Below are positions 11,974-64,000 of a stretch of DNA of 64,000 nucleotides, piece by piece. The notes under the pieces are model-generated. The model was given only the letters and a program-made list of their open reading frames with translations. It was not told the origin of the DNA and searched no databases. A program made the position numbers and the translations under genes. Each line of letters begins with the position of its first letter. The first letter of the stretch is position 1. The stretch spans positions 865 through 64,864 of the forward strand of contig CAZDTP010000009.1 in the NCBI GenBank assembly GCA_964508365.1, read 5' to 3'. Source of the DNA: an uncultured archaeon. GTDB lineage: Archaea; Asgardarchaeota; Lokiarchaeia; Sigyniarchaeales; SOKP01.

Positions 11974-12534
11974 TTGGAACTTTTTCCCGCATTTGAGATT
12001 GGATTGTTAAACGGTTGGATTTTTATGGTAATATTTTTCTTATTTTATGGTATATTTTTAAAAACTTGTCCAAAAGAAGTGATTACTAGACTTTACGATA
12101 ATGAGGGATGGACAAAATCACAATACATTTTAACAAAATTAGGAAAATTATGTGGTTTAATTCATATAATCCTTGTAATTTTTACGCCATTAAACATAGT
12201 ATCTATCGAATTTATGATTGGAATCATTATTTATTTAATAGGAACAATAGGATTCGTTATTGCTGTTATAAATTTTAAGAAGGTACCATTAGGTCAGCCA
12301 ATTACTTTAGGAGTGTATAAAATCTCACGAAATCCTCAGGTCTTAACATTATTTCTCGTTAGTTTTGGGACTTCTTTAATGATAGCTTCTTGGATAGCAG
12401 TAATAATTGTAGTTATTTCCATAATCTTCTTTCATTTTAGAATTTTAGGTGAAGAAAAAAGACTTATTGAACAATATGGTGATTCTTATTTAGAGTATAA
12501 GAAAAAGGTGCCAAGATATTTTTTATTTATTTAA
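11974..12534 (+). CDS. ICMT-family membrane methyltransferase
   Basis: 186 aa, hydrophobic. YKISRNPQVLTLFL and EEKRLIEQYGDSYLEYKKKVPRYF match the family's C-terminal signature. Confidence 0.6.
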   Translation: MELFPAFEIGLLNGWIFMVIFFLFYGIFLKTCPKEVITRLYDNEGWTKSQYILTKLGKLCGLIHIILVIFTPLNIVSIEFMIGIIIYLIGTIGFVIAVINFKKVPLGQPITLGVYKISRNPQVLTLFLVSFGTSLMIASWIAVIIVVISIIFFHFRILGEEKRLIEQYGDSYLEYKKKVPRYFLFI

Positions 12535-12609: not shown

Positions 12610-13095
12610 TTATCGAGGAATCCATTTTGGTACTTTTTCCTTGTATTCTAAATATTTTTGTCCAAATAATTCTTCTAGTTTTTTTCCTTCAAAGGTAGCC
12701 AATTTATCGTAAATGACAATTATTATAATCCATATCGCTATACTAATCAAGGAAATCGATAGAAATATGCACGCAAGATAAATTAAGAGTACACCAAAAT
12801 ACATCGGATTTCTTACATGCCCAAATAGTCCGTCCGTTATGAGGTCGTCCTTATTTTCTGGGTGTTTAAATAAAATGGTGGTCGAAGTGCGAATAAAAGC
12901 GAAAGCTACAGTGATAAAAATAATGAATAAGATAAGTCTAACTATCCAAGGAAAAAAACTATTCATTACAGTTGAAAACGAGAAAACAAGTGAATCTAGA
13001 AGCCAAACTGTGATAAAAACAATAACAGAAAATCCTTGTATTAGATGAGAATGTAGTGCCTCGATTCCGAACCTATTTTCATAATTATGGCTCAT
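12610..13095 (-). CDS. ICMT-family membrane methyltransferase
   Basis: 161 aa. GHVRNPMYFGVLLIY and EGKKLEELFGQKYLEYKEKVPKWIP match the family signature. Confidence 0.65.
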   Translation of the reverse strand: MSHNYENRFGIEALHSHLIQGFSVIVFITVWLLDSLVFSFSTVMNSFFPWIVRLILFIIFITVAFAFIRTSTTILFKHPENKDDLITDGLFGHVRNPMYFGVLLIYLACIFLSISLISIAIWIIIIVIYDKLATFEGKKLEELFGQKYLEYKEKVPKWIPR

Positions 13096-13980: not shown

Positions 13981-14835
13981 TCATCCTTTTTCAGTCATCT
14001 GGAGGTTTTTCGCTTCAATTTTATCTTTTTCTTCTCGAGTAAGTTCTTCAATTCTTTCTTTTCTAAAAACCATAATAAATTGGTGTACAATACTCGGGAT
14101 CCATGAATAATTGATACCGTAAAGATGTAATTTCTTATTAACATCGTACCAAATTATCTCTCCTTTTAGGACATAACCGATTTGACTTAAGATGCGGGCA
14201 ATATCAGCGTTTAAAAGATGGTAATGTCCTTCAGTATACATGTTTCCTATAAAAACAGCACAGTAATGCCCCGGTTTTAAAGCCTTAAAGCATTCGCTGA
14301 AAGTATTCTTTATTAAAAGTTCCCAATCATGTTTTTTTTGCTGTGAATCTTGAGAGTCAGGGATAAAACGAGTTAATTTTGATTTATCAGAATAGACTCC
14401 TTTCGATTCTTCTCCAACTTTTTTGTACGTGCCCTTCGATTTCTCAATAGTGTCCATCTTCCAAAATGGAACATCGGTCAATATAAAATCTACCTGAAAG
14501 TTTGGATCTTCACTAAAATCATGAAGAATTTCACGAGAATCACCCTTAATAACCTTTTGAGGCGGGATAGATTCAATTTTGCAGATTTTGTGATAAGTAT
14601 CTATCCATTCTTGATTGATTTCAATCCCAATGCCGTTACGATTGCTTAAATTGCATGCGATCAATGTCCCTCCGACACCACAGAATGGATCAAGAATTAG
14701 GTCCCCCTCTTTAGTAAAAATCTTAATCAACTTTTCACATAATTCAGGCGGTTTTTGCCCTCCATGTTTATTTCTTAAATTTAATTGAAAACTCGGAGGA
14801 TATCCTTTTGGAATTACTGATTTTGTTGAAAACAC
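13981..14835 (-). CDS. N6-adenine/N4-cytosine DNA methyltransferase-like protein with permuted motif order
   Basis: HGGQKPPELCEKLIKIFTKEGDLILDPFCGVGGTLIA (SAM-binding motif I region, as in PF01555-type enzymes) precedes DFILTDVPFW (a DPPY-like motif IV). GTG start. The frame stays open 46 codons further upstream (to 14973) without an ATG, GTG or TTG. Confidence 0.6.
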   Translation of the reverse strand: MFSTKSVIPKGYPPSFQLNLRNKHGGQKPPELCEKLIKIFTKEGDLILDPFCGVGGTLIACNLSNRNGIGIEINQEWIDTYHKICKIESIPPQKVIKGDSREILHDFSEDPNFQVDFILTDVPFWKMDTIEKSKGTYKKVGEESKGVYSDKSKLTRFIPDSQDSQQKKHDWELLIKNTFSECFKALKPGHYCAVFIGNMYTEGHYHLLNADIARILSQIGYVLKGEIIWYDVNKKLHLYGINYSWIPSIVHQFIMVFRKERIEELTREEKDKIEAKNLQMTEKG

Positions 14836-15147
14836 CCACTCTTTACCTGTTAAATCGTTAACTTGATTAGCGAGATCGTAAAAACCGCGAGAAATTCCAT
14901 TTTCAGATAAAAGTTCGATTTTTTTAATTTTAAATACACCTGTATGGATTTTATGACAAATATTCCATAATTTTTATTCAATGAAAATTGAAGAAATTTG
15001 TATCTATTAATGGTTTAATAAGTATTAATGGACTAATATTTCAAGTATAACCAGTTATGTGATATTTGAAGAAATAATTAATAAAAATTTTTATACCTTA
15101 ATTGAATCTATTTTTATAAGCTTAATCAACTTTGGTACGGTTATTAT

Positions 15148-15930
15148 TTGAAATTTTATAGTCTTGATGAAAAAGGAAATTTAATCGATCTTAGTAAATT
15201 AGATTTTGATGACCATGATGTATATCTTATTGATGACATCGAGAAAAACACATTATACATCTGGGTGGGGCTTAAAGTTCCCCAATATAAAAAAGACCTC
15301 ACAGCAGCTTGGGCTAGGAGATTTGATAAAGATCGCGGAGGTGCGTGCAAGATATTAATAATGATCCAAAAGCGGGAATATGGATCATTTTTATCGATGA
15401 TGGATCAGTTAAAAAAGGGATTAATACCCGGTAAATCAACTGAACGCAGACCCGAGCTGGTATTATTAGCACCTAAAGAAGTGGCTTCATCCAGTTCAGA
15501 GATGATTACTCCAGAGACTAAAACCCCAGAGATTAAAGAGGAAGCTGCTGAAGCAGGGGTGTTTGCATGGTTAACGCAACTAAAAAAACACAGAGCAGTT
15601 GTTACAGAAAGCGAAGAAGCTGAAGCTAAGGAACCTACAGAAAAAGATGTGGTGACCATAGATGATGAAGAAGTTGGTCTAGAATCTCAAATCAGAGAAG
15701 CTGCTTATTATCTCTCATTAAAAAAATATTCATATAACGATTTATGCTGGCTATTAGCTGAATCTATTCAAAAAGTAAGACTTGAAATGCCTTCGCTTGA
15801 AGATATTCGTAAAAAGGCAGAGGAAGTGTATAATTCATCTAGCACCTATGATGAGTTGTGTTGGTTGAATGCTCAAATGGACATTCTGATTGAACAACAA
15901 TATCTGGAAAAAAAGAAAAAATATAATTAG
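15148..15930 (+). CDS. gelsolin-like domain protein with acidic linker and C-terminal Y-x-[DE]-L-C-W-L repeats
   Basis: Residues 1-95 (15148-15432) line up by eye with gelsolin repeat landmarks. DVYLIDD corresponds to GDAYVIL. LYIWVGLKVPQYKKDLTAAWARRFD corresponds to LHYWLGxxxSQDExxAAAxxxxxLD. RGGACKILIMIQKREYGSFLSMM corresponds to xGRAVQHREVQGxESxxFLGYF. TTG start. Confidence 0.45.
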   Translation: MKFYSLDEKGNLIDLSKLDFDDHDVYLIDDIEKNTLYIWVGLKVPQYKKDLTAAWARRFDKDRGGACKILIMIQKREYGSFLSMMDQLKKGLIPGKSTERRPELVLLAPKEVASSSSEMITPETKTPEIKEEAAEAGVFAWLTQLKKHRAVVTESEEAEAKEPTEKDVVTIDDEEVGLESQIREAAYYLSLKKYSYNDLCWLLAESIQKVRLEMPSLEDIRKKAEEVYNSSSTYDELCWLNAQMDILIEQQYLEKKKKYN

Positions 15931-15989
15931 AAATAATACAGTTTTATTGTTTCATATTATAAAAGAAAAAGATAAAGTTCGCTTATTTT

Positions 15990-16334
15990 CTAAGCTTTAA
16001 CCATTATTAGCATCATTTTAAATCGCTCCAAAGCGTTAAGAGCATGGGGTTCATTAGCAGGCATCGTCATTATTTGCCCTTTATCTAAAACATAAGGTTT
16101 TTTAGAAATTATAATTTCTGCTTTACCATCGAAAATGTAAACTAACGCATCAAACGGAGTTGTATGCTCACTTAAACCCTCACCTTTATCAAAAGAAAAC
16201 AATGTTACTGTGCCTATTTTTTTGTTCATCAACATTCTACTAACAACAGAGCCTTCTTGATAATCAAGTAAGTTTTCTAAATCTAAAATTTCAGGATTTT
16301 CTTTATTATGACTAGATATACTCAAATATTTCAC
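15990..16334 (-). CDS. cupin-domain protein
   Basis: 114 aa. GEGLSEHTTPFDALVYIFDGKAEI and PANEPHALNA correspond to the two cupin motifs. Confidence 0.7.
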   Translation of the reverse strand: MKYLSISSHNKENPEILDLENLLDYQEGSVVSRMLMNKKIGTVTLFSFDKGEGLSEHTTPFDALVYIFDGKAEIIISKKPYVLDKGQIMTMPANEPHALNALERFKMMLIMVKA

Positions 16335-16547
16335 ATCTAACTTTTGAATTTTAATGATTATTTATTAAGTATAATTGTAAAGTGTTTATAAACCTAAATT
16401 CGAACATGTTTCATTTTAAGTTAGAAAGAAAAAAAAAGGAAATGCAATTTTGATAAAGGCTTAACAAATAATTTAATTTATAAAATCTGACTAGAAGTCA
16501 ATTGTATTTATAATTCTTACTCTTCACTAATTAAGATTTATTGATTA

Positions 16548-17516
16548 ATGATGACAACAGAGAAAAAGATGCCTTCTAATTCAGAAGCTCATAAAATTTA
16601 TACTGAATTTGCTAGAGAAAGGAAGATCATTTTGCATCATGGAGATTCACTAAAATTCTTGAAAACTGTGCCTAATAATAGTATAAATTTAATAGTGACC
16701 TCACCTCCTTATAACATTGGCAAAGATTACGAGGAAAAAGCAACATTAGACGCATATTTGAAAAATCAAGAAATTATCATTAGACATCTTCAGGATAAAC
16801 TTAAAAGTGAAGGAAGTGTTTGTTGGGAAGTCGGAAATTATGTGGATAACGGTGAAATTTATCCTTTAGATATCTTTTTTTACGATATTTTCAAAAAAAT
16901 AGGTATGAAATTGAGGAATAGAATTGTATGGCATTTTGGACATGGATTACATTGTAAGAATCGATTTTCTGGAAGGTATGAGACAATTCTATGGTTTACA
17001 AAAACAGATAATTATGTTTTCAATTTAGATTCGATAAGAGTACCAGCTAAATATCCAGGGAAACGCGCATATAAGGGACCAAATAAGGGTAAACTTTCAG
17101 GAAACCCTTTAGGAAAAAATCCTTCAGATGTCTGGAAAATATTAGAAGATGATTGGATGACTGCTTTCTGGGAGTTTCCAAACGTTAAATCTAACCATCC
17201 AGAAAAAACTATTCATCCTTGCCAATTTCCAATAGAATTAGTAGAAAGATGTGTTCTTGCTCTCACTAATAGAGGAGATTATATTTTAGATCCTTTTTGT
17301 GGTGTAGGAACGACCTTAGTTGCTGGATTAAAGCATTCTCGAAAGGTTATTGGTGTAGATAAAGAATTGGAATATATTAAATTAGCGAGGCAAAGAATTA
17401 CACAATTTTTTGATGGTAATTTAAAAGTTAGACCTTTAGGAAAAAAAGTCTATCAACCTACAGGGCGAGAAAAAGTATCGAAATTTCCTCTTGAATGGAA
17501 AAATTATCAGAGATGA
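16548..17516 (+). CDS. beta-class N4-cytosine/N6-adenine DNA methyltransferase
   Basis: Motif IV is NLIVTSPPYN near the N-terminus. HPCQFPIELVERCVLALTNRGDYILDPFCGVGTTLVAG, followed by VIGVDKELEYIKLARQRI, lies near the C-terminus. This is the classic PF01555 organisation. Confidence 0.85.
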   Translation: MMTTEKKMPSNSEAHKIYTEFARERKIILHHGDSLKFLKTVPNNSINLIVTSPPYNIGKDYEEKATLDAYLKNQEIIIRHLQDKLKSEGSVCWEVGNYVDNGEIYPLDIFFYDIFKKIGMKLRNRIVWHFGHGLHCKNRFSGRYETILWFTKTDNYVFNLDSIRVPAKYPGKRAYKGPNKGKLSGNPLGKNPSDVWKILEDDWMTAFWEFPNVKSNHPEKTIHPCQFPIELVERCVLALTNRGDYILDPFCGVGTTLVAGLKHSRKVIGVDKELEYIKLARQRITQFFDGNLKVRPLGKKVYQPTGREKVSKFPLEWKNYQR

Positions 17517-35172: not shown

Positions 35173-36351
35173 TTAATTCTGCTGGAAATTTGAAATTAAC
35201 ACATTCTTAATTTTTTCAAAATGTCCTAAGTTAATCAATAGTAAGTCGTTTAAAGCATCCGTTAATCCTGTTATTTCTATTTTTTCAACAATTTTATAGT
35301 AAGGACTTTTCTTAAGATCTTTTGTTAGAGCTTTATTCTCTTCAATTCCATTCAATAAATAGTCTCTACAATTTATTTCCTTGCTTCCCAATATCCTTTG
35401 AATAATAGCAAGCAACATCGTATCAAAAGTGACTCTTAATATGATTTCTCGGTCAAAATCTTTTTTAATTTTGAATAGATAATCCTTAATTAGTAAAATT
35501 GATTCTTTAAACAGTTTAATTGAATCGTTTCCAAGTTTTTCTATTTTTTCTTTAAAATCAACATTTCTTAAGGCAGTTAAGCAGATTGCTGAAACCGTTT
35601 GGTATTCAGCAACAAAATGGATGAACCTTGCTTTGGTGTTAAGCATAGTATCTTTAGATTCAGCATCATCAAGCAATTCTTCGAGGTTAGTTAACGATTT
35701 TTGGAAATAAGTAGAAATATTATAAAATTTTTCTGCCGCAGCTTCAAATTCTTTATTTACTATTAAAATTTGAGCCCGTTTTTCTTCCTCTTGATAGAGA
35801 TCGTCAAATTTATTGATTTTCATTACAGCTCTTAATATTAACTGCTTTCCTCTATCTTTTGTAATTTGAGATCGTTCAAACGCTTGTCCCGCTTTTAAAA
35901 GGAGTATTGAAGCCAAATTAGAATATTCTTCAGGATCTGACTCGTATAAATAATCTGATGCACTATTCCAACTTTCACCAGCTGTTTCCCAATCTTTCAT
36001 TCGAAATGAGATATTACCCAGCTGAATTAATAATTTTGCCGATATTTCATATAGTTTTAATTCTTCAGTTTTTCGAATTATTGATTTCAAGCGATAAATT
36101 GCTTGAATGTTGCTTTTAAACTGTGATATAATCTGAGTTATTCTAATATAGATTTCATCTAACTTAATATAACTCCCTAAATCAAGGTAAATTTGAGCTG
36201 CTTGTTCGTATTCTTTAATAGAATCATCTCCTTTACCTTTATCGGCTAATTCTTCAGCAATGTCAATTAATCTGATCGCTTCAGCTTCCTTTTCATCTTT
36301 TTCGTCGTTGTTATACATAATCAAATTCTCCAAGATAGTTCGATAAATCAA
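35173..36351 (-). CDS. all-helical repeat protein (TPR/SNAP-like)
   Basis: 392 aa with recurring helix-pair segments carrying A/Y/L at TPR-like positions (EYEQAAQIYLDLGSY, FRMKDWETAGESWNSASDYL, LLLKAGQAFERS). Fold assignment is by eye only. The start is TTG 36351 or ATG 36318. Confidence 0.35.
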   Translation of the reverse strand: MIYRTILENLIMYNNDEKDEKEAEAIRLIDIAEELADKGKGDDSIKEYEQAAQIYLDLGSYIKLDEIYIRITQIISQFKSNIQAIYRLKSIIRKTEELKLYEISAKLLIQLGNISFRMKDWETAGESWNSASDYLYESDPEEYSNLASILLLKAGQAFERSQITKDRGKQLILRAVMKINKFDDLYQEEEKRAQILIVNKEFEAAAEKFYNISTYFQKSLTNLEELLDDAESKDTMLNTKARFIHFVAEYQTVSAICLTALRNVDFKEKIEKLGNDSIKLFKESILLIKDYLFKIKKDFDREIILRVTFDTMLLAIIQRILGSKEINCRDYLLNGIEENKALTKDLKKSPYYKIVEKIEITGLTDALNDLLLINLGHFEKIKNVLISNFQQN

Positions 36352-36466: not shown

Positions 36467-37366
36467 CTAAAAATTATCAAATAGTCTGATATTATCTTTT
36501 TTCATTACTTTTTTAAGCTCAATAGCCTGATAGACAGACGCAAAGCATTCAAAGCAGTCTTCAATTGCTCCATAAAAAATAAAATTAGAATACCAAGAAG
36601 CAATAAACATTACACTCGCTTTTCGAGCTTTTGTGTGGAATTTTTTGTTTAATCTTGGTGAAGAATATCTAAAGAGAAAAAGAGTTGGTGCTGTACCTAC
36701 GGGAAGTTTGAGAGCGCTACTAACAATTTGTTGAGTCTCAAGGATGTGTGAGAAACTTTCAATATCGATTACTCCGCCATCAATCCAAATTTTTTCAATC
36801 CCAATTTTCTTTAATCCATCTATGATATTTACATTTCCAGGTTGGCTATTCTCTGTAATGTAAGCGTATCTCTGAGTCGATCTCATGTTATTAGAGCCAA
36901 GTATTAAAACTACAACCGATTTTATTCGATATTTCTTGATTAACTCAGTTTCTTTTGCATTTCTGAGATTTGATACGGAATTGTAAATATAATCCTCTGG
37001 TTTTATCCCTCGTTCGTTCAAATGTTCAATTCCAGCAATTCTTGCTTCAAAACTACCACCTAAAACGAAGGGAGGGTTATAATGGTCCAAATAAAAATCT
37101 AAGTATTTCACCATTGCATTTGGCGTTGTAGCAGAGATTTCGACCAAATCTGAAAGTTTATATTGAGAAGCTAGACTCTTTTGAGCATCAATTCTTTTTC
37201 TTGCTTTAGTTTCATCAAATTGGTGCTCATATTTTCTATCAACTAATGTTTGACCTTGATAGAACATTGTGCCGATTAATACTGGAGGGTAAAAAAAATT
37301 ACCATATCCTAACTTAACATTGCCGTATAAATAATAGTCCTCATTCATGGTTGTTTTAAAGCACAA
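36467..37366 (-). CDS. MtrH-family (pterin/corrinoid) methyltransferase-like protein
   Basis: YPPVLIGTMFYQGQTLVD...FDETKARKRIDAQ...VEISATTPNAMVKYLDFYLDHYNPPFVLGG...IYNSV follows the MtrH N-terminal pattern (PTVLIGSIFY..., AMIKYIDF..., PFLIDS..., IYNSI). The likely true start is ATG 37348. Confidence 0.6.
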   Translation of the reverse strand: MCFKTTMNEDYYLYGNVKLGYGNFFYPPVLIGTMFYQGQTLVDRKYEHQFDETKARKRIDAQKSLASQYKLSDLVEISATTPNAMVKYLDFYLDHYNPPFVLGGSFEARIAGIEHLNERGIKPEDYIYNSVSNLRNAKETELIKKYRIKSVVVLILGSNNMRSTQRYAYITENSQPGNVNIIDGLKKIGIEKIWIDGGVIDIESFSHILETQQIVSSALKLPVGTAPTLFLFRYSSPRLNKKFHTKARKASVMFIASWYSNFIFYGAIEDCFECFASVYQAIELKKVMKKDNIRLFDNF

Positions 37367-37446: not shown

Positions 37447-38646
37447 CTAGAATTTATGCAATTTTACTCCACAGTTTTTACAGCGACTTTCTGTTAAATC
37501 TTTAAAATGAGATTCATGAAATAATGATTTGCAATTATCACACCTTAAGATATCTTGCCCTTCCTCAAATATTAAATTACAAACAGGGCAAGACTTAAAC
37601 ATATCATCAGAATCTAAATCGCCAAATTTTATTGACTCAACATGAGAAAGTTCCGGCGTTTTAGGCTCTTTTTTAGCTTTTATCCTTGGTTTGGAAAGAG
37701 ATGTGAGCTTTTGAACTTGAGACACTTCAGTTGGAATCTTTAATAAATAGAAGCAATGAGGGCATCGAACTGTTCCCGCTTGTATCATTTTTCTGTCTTT
37801 TTGGGAATTAGCCCAAGAAGATAAACAGTGAATATGATATGGTGTTTGGCAATTAGGGCAATAACGACCGCTAACATAAAAGGAACTTTTAGTGTAGGGA
37901 TTTATATCTGAAAAGCAGATCGAACATTTTTTATAATCTGCTAAGCCTCTTATCTGTAACAATCTTTGTTCTTGATCTTTTGTCAGATCATGGACTCTTA
38001 AAAGATCAGCTGCTATTTTTCTAAGAAAAGCGGGATTTTCAATAATTGAAGTTTTCCCGTCGCCGTAAGTTTTAATATTAGATCCTGCTAAATCATGAGC
38101 CGCTTGTAGTAAAGATTGAGCGTCATTATTGTAATAATAGTTTCCCCCTGTGAGGTCGCTCATCCTTTTTAAAATATTGAGAGGAGAAAGTTCACCCAAT
38201 CGAAATGTATCTATTTTTACATTTAATCCTTGAGCTAAACGTGCCATTTTCAATGGATCAATAGAAGTAGTAGTAAAATTGCCATCCGAAATAACAAGAA
38301 TTCGAGGAACTTTAGCTGATATCTTTCGTAATTCAGAAATAATTAATTTAATAGAAAGTCCTAGGGCTTCTCCCAGAGCTGATTTTCCAGAAACCTCTAA
38401 ATCATCTAACACTTCAAAAAGTATTTTATTATCATTTGTAAAATCCATTATTTTTTTTGGTTTATTCGAAAATTGTACAATTGCGAACGCACTTGAAGTA
38501 TCTTGAGCTAATCTCTCACTTATTAATTTTTTCAAAGCATCTATACTACAATTTAACCGATTTGGGGTATAATCTGCTCGATACATTGATCTAGAGGTGT
38601 CGATGCAAATAACAATATTTTCTGAGTGCCATTCAGCCAAATTCAA
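37447..38646 (-). CDS. vWA-domain protein with two C-terminal RING-like zinc fingers
   Basis: MIDAS DTSRSM plus SGKSALGEAL and VISDGN define a vWA domain (aa 10-190). Finger 1 (37753-37926) is CSIC-x17-CPNC-x4-H-x2-C..W..-CPHC. Finger 2 (37471-37590) is CPVC-x12-CDNC-x4-H-x2-H-x9-CKNC. TTG start. Confidence 0.75.
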   Translation of the reverse strand: MNLAEWHSENIVICIDTSRSMYRADYTPNRLNCSIDALKKLISERLAQDTSSAFAIVQFSNKPKKIMDFTNDNKILFEVLDDLEVSGKSALGEALGLSIKLIISELRKISAKVPRILVISDGNFTTTSIDPLKMARLAQGLNVKIDTFRLGELSPLNILKRMSDLTGGNYYYNNDAQSLLQAAHDLAGSNIKTYGDGKTSIIENPAFLRKIAADLLRVHDLTKDQEQRLLQIRGLADYKKCSICFSDINPYTKSSFYVSGRYCPNCQTPYHIHCLSSWANSQKDRKMIQAGTVRCPHCFYLLKIPTEVSQVQKLTSLSKPRIKAKKEPKTPELSHVESIKFGDLDSDDMFKSCPVCNLIFEEGQDILRCDNCKSLFHESHFKDLTESRCKNCGVKLHKF

Positions 38647-38823
38647 ATCCCATTTACGCTTTTAAAAGAACCCGTAAGTTTCTCTAATAGAATAATCTAA
38701 CAAATAGAATAAAAAATTATGTTTTTTCAGAAAACTAAAATTTTATTAATTAGATATTTTACTATAAAATAAAGTTACACTATAAATTAAAGTATAATTG
38801 ATTTTAAATCCGATGAGTCATTC

Positions 38824-40032
38824 ATGTCTGAAGAGGAGACAAAAAGCGTTGTGATTAAAGACTTCTTCAAAAGTTCTATAATTATTAACGAAATAGATGA
38901 AGCATTAAAATTCAAGCCAGATTCGCTAATTGGAATTGATCAAATTTCCTCAGACAAACTAATAGAAAATAACATAAAAAATATTGAGGATCTAGCGAAA
39001 TTATCGCTCGAGAGTCTTCCAATTATTGAAGAAATTCCTACTAGAGTTCTTCAGAAATGGGTAAGAATCGCACAAGTACTTGAAAAAGCAATCAGAGAGA
39101 AAATAAAAACACATAAGAAAATCTTAATGATAGGTTTGGATAATGGGGGAAAAACTAGCATTTTAGCAGTTCTTCAAGAGAAATTCTCTATAATTAAATC
39201 TCTTCTACCGACACGAGGGGTACAACGCGAGAAATTAGATTTCTTTGGCTACCCCATACTTTCATGGGACCTAGGCGGTCAGGTGCAATACAGAGAGAAG
39301 TTATATTTTAACAGGCCTGAATTATTCTTTACTGAAGCTGATTTGGTACTTTATGTTATTGACACACAAGATACTGATAGATTTGCAGAAGCTGCAAATT
39401 ACTTCCGTCAAGTATTAAAAGCATTGGTTGAATTAAATGAATTCCCTCCAATCATGGTAGTACTCTCAAAAAGTGATAAAGATATTCGTACTTCTATCAA
39501 ATGGCAAAACAATGTATCTGCGATAAAAAATAAATTCGATCATATTATTGTCGAATATAAAGAATTATCAATCAACTATGGTGATACGACAATATATCAA
39601 AAAGAAACTATCATGCAAATGTTCAGCGAAGCTTTGAAATTAGTTTCTGGAACTTCAGAGATAATTGAGAATATCATAGAGGACTTTACTCATTCTATTG
39701 ATGGTAAAGCAACGAGCTTAATTTCGATGGATGGTTTAATTTTTGGAAGTTTCACGAGCTCAGATATTGATGAGGCTTTACTAAATAATACAGCTCTAAT
39801 TATGCAAACACTTTCGAACTTTCATAATTCGATAGGATTAACTAGAGAACCTTCAATCACGCTTGATTTTCCCTTAAATGGATTTGCAATTCGAGGAGAA
39901 AAACTTTTTGAATATTCTGAGCTAAAAATACCAGTATATTTGTGGATACTTAGTGATAATTTCGATTTACTTAATGAGAAAATCGATTACTTTAAACAAC
40001 AGCTTTTACCATTGATAAATTTATTTCTCTAA
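38824..40032 (+). CDS. Arf-like small GTPase with N-terminal HhH-like segment and C-terminal Roadblock/LC7-like domain
   Basis: GTPase (39115-39639): G1 GLDNGGKTS, G2 LPTRG, G3 WDLGGQ, G4 LSKSDK. The C-terminus (39655-40029), SIDGKATSLISMDGLIFGSF...ALIMQTL...ITLDF..FAIRGEKL, fits Roadblock/MglB-type patterns. In the N-terminus, LIGIDQISSDKLIENNIKNIEDLAKLSLESL is HhH-like. Confidence 0.75.
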   Translation: MSEEETKSVVIKDFFKSSIIINEIDEALKFKPDSLIGIDQISSDKLIENNIKNIEDLAKLSLESLPIIEEIPTRVLQKWVRIAQVLEKAIREKIKTHKKILMIGLDNGGKTSILAVLQEKFSIIKSLLPTRGVQREKLDFFGYPILSWDLGGQVQYREKLYFNRPELFFTEADLVLYVIDTQDTDRFAEAANYFRQVLKALVELNEFPPIMVVLSKSDKDIRTSIKWQNNVSAIKNKFDHIIVEYKELSINYGDTTIYQKETIMQMFSEALKLVSGTSEIIENIIEDFTHSIDGKATSLISMDGLIFGSFTSSDIDEALLNNTALIMQTLSNFHNSIGLTREPSITLDFPLNGFAIRGEKLFEYSELKIPVYLWILSDNFDLLNEKIDYFKQQLLPLINLFL

Positions 40033-40423: not shown

Positions 40424-41020
40424 TTAAAGCGAAGCTAAAAATTCAGATACTGCGGCATCAGAAAGCTGTTCATCTATTAATTTATCATCAATTTCTTCTG
40501 AGAGGAGATCAAATTTGTATGAACATTTCTCGCCTCCTGTTAAAACGCACTCTACTTCACTACCATCAACATCGATCCCAAGTACTTCAAAAAGACTGTT
40601 AAAAATTCCAAGGTATAGTAAACATAAGTTTTTAGCCGATATATTGCCTACTTCTTGGGTTGCTAAAGAATCGTACACATTTATGATAATATGGTCTTTT
40701 TTAAACATCCCTGTGAGCCCACCGTACCCCATAAGCATTAAGACCTCGATAGTTCCAAAGACAACTTCCTTTTTAATCTCCATTGTTTCTTTACTCCAAT
40801 CCTTGTTAGCAAAAAACTTCTCCAAAAATATCTTGCCTAGAGATTTCCCTACCCATATCAGGATATCTTCAGCATTTGTTCCAGCAAATTCGCAAAATTC
40901 CATTATCTCATTTGGACGTAGCATGACAAGCCTCATGTCTTTTTTTTTTTCACCTAGAAATAGTTGTCCTTCTTTTTCCTCAATATTTATCTGTAATTCT
41001 TTTTTGAGACGTTTAATCAT
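40424..41020 (-). CDS. V4R (4-vinyl reductase) domain protein
   Basis: GTNAEDILIWVGKSLGKIFLEKF ... LMLMGYGGL ... IIINVYDSLATQE ... NLCLLYLGIFNSLFEVLG ... EVECVLTGGEKCSYKF reproduces the V4R pattern, including the terminal E-x-x-C-x3-G-x2-C-x-F. Confidence 0.75.
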   Translation of the reverse strand: MIKRLKKELQINIEEKEGQLFLGEKKKDMRLVMLRPNEIMEFCEFAGTNAEDILIWVGKSLGKIFLEKFFANKDWSKETMEIKKEVVFGTIEVLMLMGYGGLTGMFKKDHIIINVYDSLATQEVGNISAKNLCLLYLGIFNSLFEVLGIDVDGSEVECVLTGGEKCSYKFDLLSEEIDDKLIDEQLSDAAVSEFLASL

Positions 41021-41145: not shown

Positions 41146-42183
41146 CTAAGCTGAGACTAAGGTAAAAATCGTGTTTAATACTTTTTCAATATTATAGCTA
41201 GTTTTAACGGATGTAAAAACAAATGTCCAATTGTTATGCTGCAAACTATCAAATTCAAAAAAGTCAATAATTTCTTTTTCTGTTCTTTTTATTTGATCAT
41301 CATTATTACTATTGTTATGATTAATTAAATCAATCTTATTACCAAGGATTATAAGAGGAATATCTTTTAGATCATTTTCGTTATATATTTTCCAAAACTC
41401 AGTTTTTGATTCGTTAAAGCGTAATTGGTTAGCAACATCGATAATATAAATAATTATATTTGAATCTTGAAGGCCTAATAACCACTTTTCCCTAAAGGTG
41501 CTTTGCCCTGGGCTATCCCATATTGAGAGAAGACCATCTTGTCTCTGGATATACTCAATGTTGAATCTTTTACTCGGTGTAAAAAAATTGTCGTTAAACT
41601 TACCTGTTTTGATTCTCCTTGTAAAGGAGCTCTTCCCGGTTTCATCCAACCCAAAAAGAAAGACCTTTGTAAACAATCCAGAGGGATGAAATGAAACTTC
41701 AGGAGCTTTTTCAAGTGTTTCATCCCCAAATCTTTTTATATCAATAAATAATGTGATTAAGAAGTTTTCTATTTCGGTATCGTCTTTAAAAGAGCAACAT
41801 CTTTCAATATTTAATAATTCATTTGACATATCAACAAAAATTTCTCGGTAATCGTATGGATTATCGTCTTTTTCAAATACTAATCCGATAAGCATTTCAA
41901 TATTAATGCATATAGTATAGAGGTTTTGGTTCCCAATCAATTGAGAAACGGGATTGCCAATTACAAACGGATTAGAGGTATTCTGCGTAGAATTTGTTTT
42001 ACTTTTGGATATGATTTTTTCACAACAATTATCTTCTAGGGATCCATGATCGTGTCCTTGGATGATTTTTAATACTATTTCTTTATTATCCTTTTTGTCT
42101 ATATCTTCGGGATAACTATAGATATCAAGAGTGTCTAAATCAAGAGTATTTTTACGCTTTAATAAAAATATTTTAGATAACAC
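41146..42183 (-). CDS. Arf/SR-beta-like small GTPase with ~170-aa N-terminal alpha/beta domain (possibly longin/roadblock-like)
   Basis: GTPase (41149-41670): G1 GLDETGKSS, G2 FTPSKRF, G3 WDSPGQ, G4 GNKIDL, G5 TSVKT. The N-terminal domain (41704-42183) has no recognised motif. LYTICINIEMLIGLVFEKDDNPYDYREIFVDMSNELL is compatible with a longin-type core. GTG start. Confidence 0.75.
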   Translation of the reverse strand: MLSKIFLLKRKNTLDLDTLDIYSYPEDIDKKDNKEIVLKIIQGHDHGSLEDNCCEKIISKSKTNSTQNTSNPFVIGNPVSQLIGNQNLYTICINIEMLIGLVFEKDDNPYDYREIFVDMSNELLNIERCCSFKDDTEIENFLITLFIDIKRFGDETLEKAPEVSFHPSGLFTKVFLFGLDETGKSSFTRRIKTGKFNDNFFTPSKRFNIEYIQRQDGLLSIWDSPGQSTFREKWLLGLQDSNIIIYIIDVANQLRFNESKTEFWKIYNENDLKDIPLIILGNKIDLINHNNSNNDDQIKRTEKEIIDFFEFDSLQHNNWTFVFTSVKTSYNIEKVLNTIFTLVSA

Positions 42184-42349: not shown

Positions 42350-43741
42350 TTATGTATTTGTGTCTTCTTCACTATCCGCTTCTTCTTCCAAGATTTCATC
42401 TTGATCTTCTTCAGAGAGTTCTTTTGGTTCTTCTTTTTCTTCTTTAGAAGGTTTCTCTCCAACAGGAGTGTCACACACAGGACATTTTCTCCATCCGGGT
42501 CTTAAACTATATCCACAGTTAGAACATTCAGGCATCTCTTGATCAGGTTGCCATTCAGGAATATTTAATCCCCCTCTTCTTCTTTTTTCAGCTAATTCCT
42601 GTAAATCTTCTTCTTTCCATACCTCCATACCTTCAGGGATTCCCGAACCGCGCTCTTCAGCGAATTTAAGTAAATCTTCTTCCTCCCAAGTAGGAAGGTT
42701 TGGTTGGGTAGTTAACCTCTTTTGAGCTTCGTTAGCGAGCTCTTCAGCGGTCCAAGCTTTTAACTCTTGACCTCCTGGCGTTCTAATCCCTCCTTCTGAA
42801 GGTCCAGAAACCTGTCCTTCGGAGATAGATTGTTGTGGCCCTGGTAAAGGTATTTGACAACATGAAGCAGACAATTTTAAAAAAGCTTCAAAACAATTTC
42901 CAAAACGAGACTGTTCTTGACCTTCATCGGTAATAAGGATGATACTTTTTTTGTCAGAAGGAAGAGGAACTATAATACTACAAACAGCTGTGTCTGATTT
43001 AACTCTCTCGGATTCTATAGCAGTCATAATTTTTTCCATGGAGTTGTTTAAATCAGAATCTTTCATCAAAAAATCACAAATTGGGTCGCCATGTCTTTGA
43101 AATTCCTCGTGATATTTTGATAACTGATTTTTAGTAATAATAGAATCTAGTGAATTAATGATGGCGCTCATATAGGGAAAAATATGAGATTTAGGTTCTT
43201 TTTGTGAATCATCAAGTTTGTATCCTCCTAGATCAATGTTTCCCGTAAAAGGAGCGAACAATGGTTCTTGACCTTTAATTTTCCCATATAATGTTGTTCT
43301 ACCAACAAAACATTTTATCTCCCCATAATACGCAATAGTATTATCTATTAGTTGGATTTTGTCAGTATAAGAAATTCGAGGAATAGTACGAAAAATGACA
43401 TCAACCCAAGGAAGTTCTTTTACAGGTATTATAACAACGCAAGTCTTAATAATTAATTCTGATAATTTTTTAAGATATTCCTTTAGATTTTTTTTAATTT
43501 CTTTATATTTGTCTTTTTCTAATTCAGTCTCAGCATTCTTCATAAACTCATTGAATTTTTCTTCGTTTTTTTTAACAGAACCTCCATACGACTTTACATC
43601 TCCTACAATATTATCTTTTAAAATGAAAGTAGCATCGTTTATGATTTTACTTTGTAGTTCTGTAAGTTCTTCTACTAAATAATCACTTACATCAAAATCC
43701 AAACTGTTTATAAAGATTTCAAACAATTTTGCTTCAGACAA
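42350..43741 (-). CDS. protein with uncharacterised N-terminal region, three W-x-x-E-[ED]-L repeats, zinc ribbon and acidic tail
   Basis: The repeats are AWTAEELANEAQKR, TWEEEDLLKFAEER and VWKEEDLQELAEKR (about 42542-42769). The Zn ribbon is CSNCGYSLRPGWRKCPVC (42473-42526). The C-terminus is EEKEEPKELSEEDQDEILEEEADSEED. TTG start. Confidence 0.5.
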   Translation of the reverse strand: MSEAKLFEIFINSLDFDVSDYLVEELTELQSKIINDATFILKDNIVGDVKSYGGSVKKNEEKFNEFMKNAETELEKDKYKEIKKNLKEYLKKLSELIIKTCVVIIPVKELPWVDVIFRTIPRISYTDKIQLIDNTIAYYGEIKCFVGRTTLYGKIKGQEPLFAPFTGNIDLGGYKLDDSQKEPKSHIFPYMSAIINSLDSIITKNQLSKYHEEFQRHGDPICDFLMKDSDLNNSMEKIMTAIESERVKSDTAVCSIIVPLPSDKKSIILITDEGQEQSRFGNCFEAFLKLSASCCQIPLPGPQQSISEGQVSGPSEGGIRTPGGQELKAWTAEELANEAQKRLTTQPNLPTWEEEDLLKFAEERGSGIPEGMEVWKEEDLQELAEKRRRGGLNIPEWQPDQEMPECSNCGYSLRPGWRKCPVCDTPVGEKPSKEEKEEPKELSEEDQDEILEEEADSEEDTNT

Positions 43742-63605: not shown

Positions 63606-63646
63606 TTTTACTAGATCCCCCTTATTTTTCTGTATTCTAGTATTTA

Positions 63647-63931
63647 TTAAGTTATACGCGTTCCACAAACAGGACATTTTTTCACTGATTTTGGAATTGT
63701 CATTCCACAATTATTGCATTTCTTGATAATTCCTTTAAGTTCAATAGCTTTACCGCATATAGGGCATTTTTTTTTATAACTTGTTATGATCATCCCGCAA
63801 TTTTCACATTTGTTGATAAGAGGTTTGCGATATTTAAAATTTAAGTCTACTTCTCTAAATTTTTTTTCTACTGGTTCCTCTCGTTCTTCTTTTATAGTCA
63901 ATTCCAACTTTCTTGATGGCCGTTGAATCAT
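63647..63931 (-). CDS. double zinc-ribbon protein
   Basis: CENCG-x12-CPICG and CNNCG-x11-CPVCG. The frame remains open upstream to the window edge (64000), so the true start may lie outside the window. Confidence 0.5.
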   Translation of the reverse strand: MIQRPSRKLELTIKEEREEPVEKKFREVDLNFKYRKPLINKCENCGMIITSYKKKCPICGKAIELKGIIKKCNNCGMTIPKSVKKCPVCGTRIT

Positions 63932-64000
63932 ATTCTGTTTTTTATCGGGATATAATTTTGAATACAGTGATTTCTGTTTCCTGTGCTTAAAAATCGATCC

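What the first reader, a model, noticed from the sequence alone, without database searches (positions are those of the whole stretch)
37447..38646. vWA domain fused to two RING-like zinc fingers
An N-terminal vWA domain with an intact MIDAS (DTSRSM ... SDG) is followed by two cross-brace-type modules. The first is CSIC-x17-CPNC-x4-H-x2-C-LSSW ... CPHC, a C4HC3 pattern with the RING-typical Trp. The second is CPVC-x12-CDNC-x4-H-x2-H-x9-CKNC. A vWA domain followed by Zn fingers, including a RING-like C-terminal module, is the architecture of TFIIH p44/Ssl1. A vWA domain also occurs in the proteasomal ubiquitin receptor Rpn10. This arrangement is not a standard prokaryotic one. It sits divergently next to a GTPase-Roadblock gene.
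Basis: partly seen in the sequence, partly recalled or inferred. Interest (0 to 1): 0.65.

Follow-up and report, generated by a model that had tools for sequence, protein, structure and literature searches.

The report
Asgard vWA protein with two RINGs
This gene encodes a strongly conserved, unnamed Asgard-archaeal protein that joins a metal-dependent binding domain (vWA) to two RING zinc fingers of the kind used by ubiquitin ligases, has the same domain order as the eukaryotic TFIIH subunit p44, and always sits back-to-back with a Rag-like GTPase gene, so it is a good candidate for an archaeal ubiquitin ligase tied to GTPase signalling.

Summary
ORF 37447-38646 (-) encodes 399 aa: an N-terminal vWA domain with an intact MIDAS motif and two eight-ligand zinc modules. 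Two spacings were miscounted (x18 not x17; x8 not x9). Orthologs occur in at least 122 species-level genomes, nearly all titled Promethearchaeota (Asgard). In relatives down to 22% identity, 15 of the 17 invariant columns are zinc ligands.

Both fingers are RINGs. A confident model (pLDDT 90) matches RING E3 domains, not tandem zinc ribbons. The finger-2 profile hits RING-H2 ligases (Arkadia, 8e-10). Finger 1 resembles FANCL/listerin/NSE1-type C4HC3 RINGs and keeps the Ile/Trp/Pro E2-contact positions, but has no Arg linchpin.

TFIIH p44/Ssl1 is the best full-length structural match and has the same domain order. The isolated fingers do not match p44's zinc modules significantly, and Pfam C1_4 is absent. 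So it resembles p44 in architecture but is not a member.

A Rag-like GTPase is divergently adjacent in 72/72 ortholog loci. GTPases also neighbour distant paralogs. A TPR protein is the most persistent partner.

Best reading: a RING-type E3 ligase or adaptor whose vWA recruits a partner, linked to GTPase signalling. E3 activity is inferred, not shown. No Ub/E1/E2 gene lies in the window.

The parts
37447..38646 (-). Whole gene: vWA plus two tandem RINGs, 399 aa (397 aa if translation starts at the second TTG, 38640)
38077..38622 (-). vWA domain (about residues 9-190), compact cytosolic type like Rpn10, p44 and BatA
   Evidence: Pfam VWA_2, VWA and Ssl1. AF2 pLDDT 85-94. Foldseek to p44 vWA TM 0.85-0.87 at rmsd about 2.1 A, and to Rpn10 TM 0.80-0.82.
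38587..38601 (-). MIDAS core D16-T-S18-R-S20; completed by T70 and D121
   Evidence: D16, S18, S20 and D121 invariant and T70 nearly invariant in 30 orthologs. The motif is decayed in some distant paralogs.
37945..38037 (-). Conserved helical linker (residues 204-234, NPAFLRKIAADLLRV.DLTKDQEQRL). Function unknown; possibly a docking element.
   Evidence: Highly conserved; A212 and L215 nearly invariant at 22% identity. AF2 confidence is low in the full-length model.
37753..37926 (-). RING finger 1 (residues 241-298), C4HC3 of the listerin/FANCL/NSE1 type, with the E2-contact triad I243, W278, P296
   Evidence: Ligands invariant. I/V 37/37, W 37/37, P 35/37. PDB profile hits to FANCL, NSE1, listerin and SLX1. 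pLDDT 94-97.
37471..37590 (-). RING finger 2 (residues 353-392), C4H2C2 in this copy and C4HC3 in the family. Closest in sequence to RING-H2 E3 ligases, but the E2-contact positions are not conserved.
   Evidence: (Arkadia 8.3e-10). It is homologous to finger 1 (hhalign Prob 92).
38647..38823 (.). 177-bp spacer (20% G+C) between the divergent vWA-RING and GTPase genes; a presumed shared promoter region
   Evidence: The median stop-bounded ORF-to-ORF gap is 172 nt in 72 ortholog loci.
38824..40032 (+). Rag/Gtr1-like small GTPase with a C-terminal extension, divergent partner gene
   Evidence: Pfam Arf 1e-19 and Gtr1_RagA 1.5e-19. PDB 8yl2_A at 5e-38, aligned over residues 95-391. Present in 72/72 ortholog loci.
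36467..37366 (-). MtrH-family methyltransferase-like gene directly downstream. Conserved in the ortholog group only; its role in this cluster is unexplained.
   Evidence: Pfam MtrH 4e-31. NCBIfam MtrH family 3.5e-52. Present in 73/74 loci. Absent from L097.
35173..36351 (-). TPR-like helical-repeat protein (weak SNAP hit), the most persistent neighbour
   Evidence: Present in 62/64 ortholog loci. Still directly downstream in the 39%-identical P0121 lineage.
42350..43741 (-). 463-aa protein with a C-terminal zinc ribbon and an acidic tail; a recurrent neighbourhood member
   Evidence: Syntenic in orthologs. A homolog (328 bits) lies about 1.2 kb upstream of P0121, on the opposite strand, in L097.

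Best explanation
The gene encodes a cytosolic, Asgard-specific protein built from three modules: a vWA domain with a working MIDAS site, a first C4HC3 RING finger and a second, homologous RING finger. [quoted passage not shown] Finger 1 would dock the charged E2 through its conserved Ile243, Trp278 and Pro296 surface. The vWA/MIDAS face would hold the substrate or a partner through an acidic side chain completing the metal coordination. Finger 2 and the conserved linker would serve as accessory interaction modules. The likely functional partners, and perhaps targets, are the divergently transcribed Rag-like GTPase and the downstream TPR protein. Shown: the domain composition, ligand conservation, RING fold by model and fold match, family distribution and gene linkage. 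Inferred: zinc binding, E2 binding, ubiquitin transfer and the identity of the substrate.
For: Architecture and conservation. RING identity: 29 of 37 members hit Pfam zf-RING_2 (best 6.3e-8) and 19 hit Prok-RING_1 (4.2e-8). The finger-2 profile hits Arkadia, RNF165, RNF4, Pirh2, HRD1 and RLIM at 8e-10 to 6e-6. The finger-1 profile hits FANCL, NSE1, listerin and SLX1. The pLDDT-90 model matches RING E3 domains, several solved in complex with an E2. The E2-contact triad in finger 1 is conserved: I/V 37/37, W 37/37, P 35/37. The equivalent Ile and Trp are required in the experimentally active archaeal srfp E3, which also has an extra Cys in its second ligand pair (PMC5654768). A review reports that prokaryotic RINGs are typically C4HC3 (PMC11354881). 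Lokiarchaeota are reported to encode the ubiquitylation apparatus (PMC9192718), and an Asgard E1/E2/RING E3 cascade works in vitro (bioRxiv 10.1101/2023.07.25.550441). Finger 1 is the constant module: variants of 443-686 aa keep vWA plus finger 1 and replace finger 2. There is a precedent for MIDAS-vWA plus RING acting as an E3: plant RGLG1 (PMC7155146). GTPase linkage: 72/72 ortholog loci. It recurs in different contexts for distant paralogs: L008, L009, and P0187 beside the same GTPase. TPR linkage is retained at 39% identity.
Against: No Ub, E1, E2 or JAB gene was found among the ORFs scanned across the 64-kb window (all non-overlapping ORFs of at least 90 aa except 63647-63931). The linchpin position after the last Cys is Phe/Tyr (Leu once) in finger 1 and Gly in finger 2, not Arg/Lys; mutating the Arg impaired the Caldiarchaeum E3. 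Finger 2, the one most RING-H2-like in sequence, lacks the Trp and Pro. Cross-brace zinc geometry could not be measured because no model coordinates were accessible. The 20-kb region is broadly collinear among orthologs, so part of the linkage is simply shared descent. Only about 3 of 9 distant paralog instances have an adjacent GTPase. The source genome was not checked for Ub/E1/E2.
Confidence: 0.5

Rival explanations
1. A non-catalytic zinc-finger scaffold. The two RINGs serve only as protein-protein interaction modules, as the p44 RING does when it binds p34, or as the RINGs of GATOR2 and HOPS subunits do. They would assemble a complex containing the Rag-like GTPase, the TPR protein and a MIDAS-bound ligand, with no ubiquitin transfer.
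For: No Arg/Lys linchpin in either finger. No Ub-system genes nearby. The best full-length structural analogue, p44, is mainly a scaffold (established knowledge of TFIIH). There is tight linkage to non-ubiquitin genes. The MIDAS motif decays in many paralogs while the fingers stay invariant, so the fingers carry the core function whatever it is.
Against: The strict conservation of the specific Ile/Trp/Pro E2-contact triad in finger 1 across 22%-identity relatives is not required for a generic scaffold. The closest sequence relatives of both fingers are active E3 ligases.
Confidence: 0.3
2. A true archaeal member or ortholog of the TFIIH p44/Ssl1 family, acting with XPD/XPB-type helicases in transcription or repair.
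For: Foldseek's top PDB hits are p44/Ssl1 chains. Full-length chains score E 1e-18 to 1e-13, against about 1e-12 to 1e-10 for vWA-only p44 entries, so the finger region adds score. hhalign A2 vs human p44: Prob 98.5, 326 columns, zinc ligands in register. Pfam Ssl1 is above its cut-off and matches 22 of 37 members. Tfb4 matches 10 of 37.
Against: Isolated fingers vs p44 modules: 1-3 bits and 11 bits (E about 2.5), against 39 bits for Arkadia. hhalign gives Prob 30 and 55. Pfam C1_4, present in real p44s, is absent from the listed domains of the 120 orthologs and from the 25 most-matched families of the 37 members. p44's middle module is a 4-Cys finger, not an 8-ligand RING. By sequence the vWA is at least as close to bacterial BatA-like vWA and to Rpn10. 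The gene context is GTPase, TPR and MtrH, not helicase or repair genes.
Confidence: 0.07
3. An Rpn10-like ubiquitin receptor or proteasome-associated vWA protein.
For: The vWA hits S. pombe Rpn10 at 7.8e-7 (single sequence) and 8.4e-10 (profile). Foldseek TM is 0.80-0.82.
Against: No UIM or other Ub-binding motif was detected. The C-terminal half is two RINGs. There are no proteasome genes nearby.
Confidence: 0.05
4. PHD- or C1-type reader modules (binding peptide, lipid or nucleic acid) rather than RINGs.
For: C4HC3 with C-x2-C-x4-H-x2-C spacing is also the PHD signature. There are weak Pfam PHD, PHD_NSD and C1_1 hits, and PHD and C1 chains appear at about 1e-5.
Against: RING E3s outrank PHD and C1 by 4-5 orders of magnitude for finger 2, and RING-variant E3s lead the finger-1 list. 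The model has the central helix after ligand 5/6 carrying the Trp at ligand-6+4, which is RING-typical; the PHD-typical Trp two residues before ligand 7 is absent. Fold matches are to RINGs.
Confidence: 0.05

Closest known systems
TFIIH subunit p44 / Ssl1 (GTF2H2)
   Same: Same order of modules (vWA, zinc module, C-terminal RING-like module) in a protein of the same size. It is the best full-length structural match in the PDB. vWA-vWA hhalign Prob 99. Finger 2 aligns with all eight Cys of the p44 C4C4 RING in register. Ssl1 has been reported to have E3 activity (my recollection, not checked here).
   Different: p44's middle module is a 4-Cys finger, whereas here it is a full 8-ligand RING with Trp. 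p44's C-terminal domain is Pfam C1_4, which is not detected here. Isolated finger comparisons are not significant. The MIDAS motif is fully intact here. The gene context and lineage give no link to XPD or TFIIH.
Archaeal small RING finger protein (srfp) E3 of the Caldiarchaeum/Asgard ubiquitin operons
   Same: Prokaryotic-type RING with an extra Cys in the second ligand pair, and conserved Ile and Trp that are needed for E2-dependent ubiquitylation (PMC5654768). A similar standalone RING gene lies in this window at 3104-3433.
   Different: srfp is a small single-RING protein encoded in a Ub/E1/E2 operon and has an Arg linchpin. This protein has an N-terminal vWA and two RINGs, no linchpin Arg, and no Ub genes nearby.
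Plant RGLG1/2 E3 ligases (copine-type vWA plus C-terminal RING)
   Same: A MIDAS-bearing vWA followed by a C-terminal RING in a cytosolic E3, where the vWA is the ligand-binding module (PMC7155146). This is the closest functional precedent.
   Different: The vWA subtype differs (copine-like, with extra Ca sites), there is a single RING, and it is eukaryote-specific. No RGLG chain appeared in the listed PDB hits.
Listerin / FANCL / NSE1 / SLX1-type C4HC3 RING variants and RING-H2 ligases (Arkadia, RNF4, RNF38, HRD1)
   Same: Finger 1 shares the exact C-x2-C...C-x2-C-x4-H-x2-C-x3-W...C-P-x-C layout with listerin and FANCL. Finger 2 is significantly similar to RING-H2 domains. Fold matches have TM 0.55-0.67.
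   Different: No Arg linchpin. Finger 2 uses C-x2-C instead of C-x-H for the second pair and lacks the Trp and Pro.
Rpn10 / BatA-BatB-type compact vWA domains
   Same: Best sequence-level vWA matches: 4rck at 7.5e-12, Rpn10 at 8.4e-10, NCBIfam BatA at 1.6e-12. They share the DxSxSM...D-x-x-P-[NST]-R-L motif.
   Different: Those proteins carry UIMs (Rpn10) or membrane anchors (BatA/B), not RINGs.

Membership tests
vWA domain with MIDAS | Rossmann-like vWA fold | tested here: met
   Pfam VWA_2 1.1e-16 and VWA 4.9e-14. AF2 pLDDT 85-94. Foldseek TM 0.80-0.87 to solved vWA domains.
vWA domain with MIDAS | DxSxS ... T ... D metal-site residues | tested here: met
   D16, S18, S20, T70 and D121 are present; D16, S18, S20 and D121 are invariant and T70 nearly invariant in 30 orthologs. 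Metal binding itself was not tested.
RING finger (E3-type) | Eight Cys/His ligands in C-x2-C ... C-x(1-3)-C/H ... C/H-x2-C ... C-x2-C order | tested here: met
   Both fingers; ligands are invariant to 22% identity, with a His/Cys swap at position 380.
RING finger (E3-type) | Interleaved (cross-brace) binding of two zinc ions | tested here: inconclusive
   The pLDDT-90 model matches cross-brace RING domains (TM 0.55-0.67, rmsd 2.4-3.3 A) and no sequential-zinc folds.
RING finger (E3-type) | Hydrophobic E2-contact residues (Ile between ligands 1-2, Trp on the central helix, Pro in the last pair) | tested here: met
   Finger 1: I/V243 37/37, W278 37/37, P296 35/37. Finger 2 does not keep them.
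RING finger (E3-type) | Linchpin Arg/Lys after the last zinc ligand | tested here: not met
   Phe/Tyr (Leu once) in finger 1 and mostly Gly in finger 2.
RING finger (E3-type) | E2-dependent ubiquitin transfer | not testable with these tools
   Needs biochemistry with cognate E1, E2 and Ub.
TFIIH p44 / Ssl1 | Ssl1-type vWA domain | tested here: inconclusive
   Pfam Ssl1 36.6 bits is above the cut-off of 27, but VWA_2 scores higher. hhalign Prob 99 to the p44 vWA. BatA-like and Rpn10 vWAs score as well or better by HMMER.
TFIIH p44 / Ssl1 | Central C4 zinc finger | tested here: not met
   Finger 1 is an 8-ligand RING. The profile scores 1-3 bits against the p44 C4 region. hhalign Prob 30 over 11 columns.
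TFIIH p44 / Ssl1 | C-terminal C4C4 RING-like domain (Pfam C1_4, PF07975) | tested here: not met
   C1_4 is present in real p44s, absent from the domains listed for the 120 orthologs, and not among the 25 most-matched families of the 37 members. Finger 2 vs p44 RING: 11 bits, E about 2.5; hhalign Prob 55.
TFIIH p44 / Ssl1 | Association with XPD, p34 and the TFIIH core | not testable with these tools
   No helicase or repair gene is in the conserved neighbourhood, but interaction was not tested.
Rpn10 / PSMD4 | vWA followed by ubiquitin-interacting motif(s) | tested here: not met
   vWA similarity yes. No UIM was detected and the C-terminus is two RINGs.
PHD finger | C4HC3 with Trp two residues before ligand 7, and no central helix | tested here: not met
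   The Trp is at ligand-6+4 on a predicted helix. PHD profiles are below their cut-offs and are outranked by RINGs.
Prok-RING_1 (PF14446) | Pfam model above the gathering score | tested here: inconclusive
   The window copy scores 24.4 bits against a cut-off of 29.1. 19 of 37 relatives match at E <= 0.01, best 4.2e-8.

The most novel reading that the evidence does not exclude
This Asgard family is the surviving archaeal stock of the eukaryotic vWA-plus-zinc-finger proteins of TFIIH (p44/Ssl1, and by duplication p34/Tfb4). On this reading p44 began as a vWA-RING ubiquitin ligase working with small-GTPase signalling in the archaeal ancestor. It was later recruited to the XPD/XPB helicases, its first RING decayed to a 4-Cys finger, and its second RING became the C4C4 domain.
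Probability: 0.15. Interest if true: 0.85.

Novelty: new variant of a known kind. Interest (0 to 1): 0.6.

Why it matters
Asgard archaea are known to have ubiquitin, E1, E2 and a small RING E3. In the papers I could search, no substrate-recruiting multi-domain E3 like those that give the eukaryotic system its specificity has been described for them. This family would be such a candidate. It combines a ligand-binding vWA with an E2-type RING, has diversified into many paralogs, and is present in at least 122 species. Its fixed pairing with a Rag-like GTPase offers a concrete, testable link between ubiquitin-type signalling and small-GTPase signalling before eukaryotes. It is also the only prokaryotic protein family I could find with the domain order of TFIIH p44, whose prokaryotic origin is unknown. 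That turns the question of where the non-helicase TFIIH core came from into a phylogenetic and biochemical test.

Tried and rejected
(1) p44 membership. I verified a recalled human p44 sequence as 100% identical to PDB 28jm_E, compared whole proteins, then compared isolated modules by HMMER and by hhalign with a vertebrate p44 alignment. Only the vWA is significant. The p44 alignment contained vertebrates only, so its sensitivity is limited.

(2) Ubiquitin-system genes nearby. A Pfam scan of all but one of the non-overlapping ORFs of at least 90 aa (63647-63931 was only translated) found none.

(3) Sec23/24-like (vWA trunk plus zinc finger plus Sar1/Arf GTPase). Rejected: no Sec23 or Sec24 profile or fold hit, and the domain order differs.

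(4) RBR ligase. HHARI appears only at low probability (0.2-0.25), and there is no IBR domain.

(5) Tandem zinc ribbon. Rejected by the fold matches. A genuine double zinc ribbon at the window edge (63650-64000) shows what that pattern looks like.

(6) Direct measurement of Cys-Cys geometry. Model coordinates are not exposed.

(8) More loci for distant subfamilies. The metagenome scan gave only 7 short contigs. The alignment of distant members was too divergent for the genome scan.

(9) Literature. No paper in the held library describes a vWA-RING protein in Asgard archaea. Burroughs et al. 2011 is not held and the asCOG supplement is not held as text, so prior mention there cannot be excluded.

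(10) NCBIfam has no model for this protein, the TPR protein or the zinc-ribbon protein.
Full report
**Observation.** The ORF at 37447-38646 (minus strand) is real. It encodes 399 aa from a TTG. The identical database protein P0001 starts at a second TTG two codons later. Direct counting gives:

- Finger 1: C241-x2-C244-x18-C263-x2-C266-x4-H271-x2-C274-x20-C295-x2-C298, with W278 four residues after C274.
- Finger 2: C353-x2-C356-x12-C369-x2-C372-x4-H377-x2-H380-x8-C389-x2-C392.

Pfam finds VWA_2 (1.1e-16), VWA (4.9e-14) and Ssl1 (36.6 bits against a cut-off of 27) over residues 10-180. Over the fingers the window copy gives only sub-threshold hits to Prok-RING_1, zf-RING_2, PHD, C1_1 and SLX1_C.

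**Is it more than chance?** Yes. The protein has 336 homologs in the 5.8-billion-protein collection. The best 120 are all full-length (about 370-403 aa) at 58-100% identity, and sources name them only "VWA domain-containing protein" or "YegL". A scan of one genome per species found relatives in 122 genomes. Of the 80 loci listed, most are titled Promethearchaeota or Promethearchaeia; a dozen are titled Hermod-, Hod- or Odinarchaeota, 10 "uncultured archaeon", and one, a bacterium, is an obvious mis-binning.

In 30 orthologs, all ligands of finger 1, W278 and the MIDAS residues D16, S18, S20 and D121 are invariant, and T70 is nearly so. Position 380 is His in the window copy and Cys in at least 90% of the others, a ligand-for-ligand swap.

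An exhaustive profile search of 1.84 billion cluster representatives found 53 clusters below 1e-30. Many further full-length relatives (388-418 aa, matched end to end) extend down to about 100 bits. In a 37-sequence alignment that includes these (22-39% identity), the invariant columns are 15 zinc ligands plus W278 and L301, and C380 is nearly invariant. H273 and H297, which might have been alternative ligands, are not conserved, and the MIDAS motif decays in several distant branches. The fingers, not the MIDAS site, are therefore the constant core of the family.

**Are the fingers RINGs?** Across the 37 members, zf-RING_2 matches 29 (best 6.3e-8), Prok-RING_1 19 (4.2e-8), PHD 19, C1_1 22, the NSE1-type zf-RING-like 12 and zf-ANAPC11 4 (1.8e-7).

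- A profile of finger 2 alone, searched against all PDB sequences, ranks RING-H2 ubiquitin ligases first: Arkadia 8.3e-10, RNF165, RNF4, RNF24, Pirh2, RNF13, HRD1, RLIM, RNF126 and gp78. C1 and PHD domains follow at about 1e-5.
- A profile of finger 1 alone gives weaker but consistent hits to the C4HC3 RING variants of FANCL (2.1e-3), NSE1, listerin and SLX1. The listerin and FANCL alignments reproduce the whole C-x2-C...C-x2-C-x4-H-x2-C-x3-W...C-x2-C layout.
- The two fingers are homologous to each other (hhalign Prob 92, E 6e-7), which is consistent with a tandem duplication.

A structure prediction of residues 237-399 with a 49-sequence alignment is confident: mean pLDDT 90.3, and 93-97 across both fingers. 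It shows a beta-hairpin, then a helix starting at ligand 5/6, then a C-terminal strand in each module. Foldseek against the PDB returns almost only RING E3 domains: TRIM37, SLX1, APC11, FANCL (TM 0.67, in a structure of an E2-E3 complex), AO7, Ark2C, RNF12, NSE1, RNF13, RMR1, EL5 and RNF38. Probabilities are 0.96-1.0 and rmsd 2.4-3.3 A over 63-69 columns. E-values are modest (0.01-0.3), as expected for 50-residue domains. No LIM or tandem zinc-ribbon fold appears near the top.

For contrast, a real double zinc ribbon is encoded at the window edge (63650-64000) and has quite different spacing. I could not read model coordinates, so interleaved zinc pairing is inferred from the fold matches, not measured. 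A review states that prokaryotic RINGs typically have the C4HC3 arrangement (PMC11354881), which fits both fingers.

**Is finger 1 built to bind an E2?** The three classical E2-contact positions are conserved across all 37 sequences: Ile/Val between ligands 1 and 2 (37/37), Trp on the helix (37/37) and Pro in the last pair (35/37). Finger 2 is variable at all three. In the one archaeal RING E3 reconstituted in vitro (Caldiarchaeum srfp), the equivalent Ile30 and Trp58 are required for activity. That protein also uses an extra Cys in its second ligand pair, as here (PMC5654768).

Against this, the linchpin position after the last Cys is Phe or Tyr (Leu once) in finger 1 and mostly Gly in finger 2. 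It is never a conserved Arg/Lys, and R69A impaired the Caldiarchaeum enzyme.

Longer family variants (443-686 aa: P0150, P0154, P0157, P0187, P0189, P0221) keep the vWA and finger 1 but replace finger 2 with coiled coils or other modules. This singles out finger 1 as the core effector.

**The p44 question.**

*For the comparison:*
- The full-length model's best PDB matches are chains of TFIIH-containing complexes. Those I could cross-identify are p44 or Ssl1.
- Full-length p44 chains score E 6.5e-18 to about 3e-13 with about 405 aligned columns. vWA-only p44 entries score about 1e-12 to 1e-10, so the finger region adds score.
- For the vWA alone, p44 gives TM 0.85-0.87, Rpn10 0.80-0.82 and BatB 0.72.
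- I verified a recalled human p44 sequence as identical to PDB 28jm_E. hhalign of the family against it gives Prob 98.5, E 2.4e-15 and 326 columns. GRYCPNC...RCPHC aligns to p44's GGYFCPQC...VECKIC (its C4 finger), and all eight ligands of finger 2 align to the eight Cys of the p44 C4C4 RING.

*Against membership:*
- Taken alone, the finger-1 profile scores 1-3 bits on the p44 C4 region. The finger-2 profile scores 11 bits (E about 2.5 at PDB size) on the p44 RING, against 39 bits on Arkadia.
- Profile-profile comparison with a vertebrate p44 alignment gives Prob 99 for vWA-vWA, 55 for finger 2 vs the p44 RING, and 30 for finger 1 vs the p44 zinc finger.
- Real p44s carry Pfam C1_4. It is absent from the domains listed for the 120 orthologs and from the 25 most-matched families of the 37 members.
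- By sequence the vWA is no closer to p44 (37 bits) than to a Vibrio BatA-like vWA (48 bits) or to S. pombe Rpn10 (42 bits). NCBIfam's best hit is BatA.

The conclusion is that this protein has the same architecture and fold order as p44, and homology of the vWA is certain. Two defining features of p44 were tested and not met, so it is not filed as a p44 family member. Common descent of the whole architecture remains possible but unproven.

**Context.** The window has about 31% G+C and carries typical Asgard genes. These include three small GTPases, a V4R protein and RadA, plus a sub-threshold gelsolin-repeat hit.

The gene is transcribed divergently from a 402-aa Rag/Gtr1-like GTPase across a 177-bp spacer of 20% G+C. 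The GTPase's best PDB matches are two full-length "GTP-binding protein" chains (8yl2, 5e-38), followed by Arf, Arl and Sar1. Downstream on the same strand lie an MtrH-family gene and a TPR-like protein with a weak SNAP hit.

| Neighbour in ortholog loci (55-94% identity) | Present / loci with enough flank |
|---|---|
| Divergent Rag-like GTPase (median gap 172 nt) | 72 / 72 |
| MtrH-like gene | 73 / 74 |
| TPR protein | 62 / 64 |

Genes further out come and go. Because these genomes are broadly collinear here, this alone does not prove functional coupling. Distant relatives are more telling:

- P0172 (about 24% identity) again has a Gtr1/RagA-like GTPase divergently upstream, 88 bp away, in an otherwise different context.
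- In L009 a small GTPase is directly followed by a second vWA-RING paralog.
- In four genomes the same Rag-like GTPase is flanked on its other side by a second, weaker family hit. In L005 this is the finger-1-only paralog P0187.
- Other distant loci have no GTPase.
- In the 39%-identical P0121 lineage the GTPases and MtrH are gone, but the TPR gene is still directly downstream. A homolog of the 463-aa zinc-ribbon protein (42350-43741) lies about 1.2 kb upstream on the opposite strand.

The TPR protein is thus the most persistent partner. The GTPase link is recurrent but not universal, and the MtrH link is unexplained.

**Ubiquitin system.** No Ub, E1, E2 or JAB gene was found among the ORFs scanned across the window. 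The window does encode a small standalone RING protein of the same C4HC3 type at 3104-3433 (zf-RING_2 28.3 bits, above the cut-off; finger-2 profile 1e-9). Published work reports that Lokiarchaeota encode the ubiquitylation apparatus in a separate genomic region (PMC9192718). It also shows that an Asgard E1/E2/RING E3 cascade is active in vitro (bioRxiv 10.1101/2023.07.25.550441). I could not check the source genome itself.

**Mechanism proposed.**
- *Shown:* a vWA with a complete MIDAS, two homologous C4HC3 RING-fold modules, the E2-contact triad in finger 1, family-wide conservation, and linkage to a Rag-like GTPase and a TPR protein.
- *Inferred:* finger 1 recruits a charged E2. The vWA/MIDAS face binds an acidic residue of a substrate or partner, as in other MIDAS domains and in the plant vWA-RING ligase RGLG1 (PMC7155146). 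Finger 2 and the conserved linker (residues 204-234) provide further contacts. The GTPase and/or TPR protein is regulator, cofactor or target.

I give this about 0.5. The main rival, at about 0.3, is a non-catalytic zinc scaffold. It is favoured by the missing linchpin and the lack of nearby Ub genes. True p44 orthology, an Rpn10-like receptor and PHD/C1-type readers are each at or below 0.07.

**Novelty.** I found no description of this architecture in Asgard archaea in the searchable literature. No curated NCBIfam model covers it. The key prokaryotic-RING paper and the asCOG tables were not readable here, so prior mention cannot be excluded. vWA-RING combinations are known in eukaryotes (p44, RGLG). 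I therefore rate it a new variant of a known kind: an Asgard-specific vWA plus tandem-RING family with a fixed GTPase partner.

Noticed in passing
window 3104-3433 (+): A standalone 109-aa protein with an N-terminal zinc ribbon and a C4HC3 RING (C-x2-C...C-x2-C-x4-H-x2-C-x3-W...CPMC). Pfam zf-RING_2 scores 28.3 bits, above the cut-off, and the finger-2 profile hits it at 1e-9. It resembles the archaeal small RING E3 (srfp) but has no Ub, E1 or E2 gene beside it. The adjacent 108-aa ORF (3656-3982) has no Pfam hit.
   Followed up: partly
window 35173-36351 (-); L097 8285-9424: The TPR-like protein downstream has a weak Pfam SNAP (soluble NSF attachment protein) hit. So does its counterpart next to the 39%-identical family member P0121. 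It has no PDB or NCBIfam match and could be a dedicated partner of the vWA-RING protein.
   Followed up: partly
window 36467-37366 (-): An MtrH-family methyltransferase-like gene sits between the vWA-RING and TPR genes in 73 of 74 ortholog loci, but is absent from the P0121 lineage. I have no explanation for why a corrinoid-methyltransferase-like gene is fixed in this cluster.
   Followed up: partly
window 42350-43741 (-); L097 4349-5812: A 463-aa protein with no Pfam domain apart from weak, sub-threshold hits to a C-terminal zinc ribbon, and with a strongly acidic tail. It is syntenic in orthologs and is again near the family member in the distant L097 locus (328 bits). The acidic tail could be a MIDAS ligand; this is speculation.
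   Followed up: partly
window 40424-41020 (-), 41146-42183 (-), 6004-6552 (-): A V4R-domain protein and an Arf-like GTPase with a 170-aa N-terminal extension lie just beyond the Rag-like GTPase and are syntenic in many orthologs. A Ras/Rab-type GTPase lies at 6004-6552. That makes three small GTPases in 64 kb.
   Followed up: partly
L005 7255-8586 (also L006, L052, L064): In L005 a 443-aa paralog (P0187: vWA with a decayed MIDAS, finger 1 only, coiled-coil tail) lies convergent with the same Rag-like GTPase, so the GTPase is flanked on both sides by family members. L006, L052 and L064 show a weak family hit in the same position. The window itself lacks this second gene.
   Followed up: partly
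L008, L009, L098: A distant subfamily is repeatedly found next to methionyl-tRNA synthetase, with a second vWA(-RING) paralog of about 404 aa on the same contig.
   Followed up: no
window 63650-64000 (-): An ORF running off the window end encodes a tandem zinc ribbon (CxxC-x10-CxxC twice), just upstream of the A-type ATPase subunit A gene (61776-63710). It was picked up weakly by the finger profiles because of its Cys content; it is not a RING.
   Followed up: yes
window 13981-17516 and 4786-5964: A weak (sub-threshold) gelsolin-repeat protein (15148-15930) lies between two N6/N4 DNA methylase genes (13981-14835 and 16548-17516). A C5 cytosine methylase is at 4786-5964 next to an HhH-GPD glycosylase (4039-4689).
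   Followed up: no
window 397-1035, 11974-12534, 12610-13095, 9978-11886: Three PEMT/ICMT-like membrane methyltransferase genes and two adjacent carotenoid-synthesis-like membrane protein genes lie within 13 kb.
   Followed up: no
L047 (DATKTW010000126.1): A contig 94% identical and fully syntenic with the window is deposited as 'Candidatus Nanopelagicaceae bacterium'. This is almost certainly a binning or labelling error for an Asgard contig.
   Followed up: no
window residues 204-234 of the protein (nt 37945-38037): The linker between the vWA and finger 1 is among the most conserved stretches of the protein, yet it is predicted with low confidence in the full-length model. It may fold only on a partner.
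   Followed up: no
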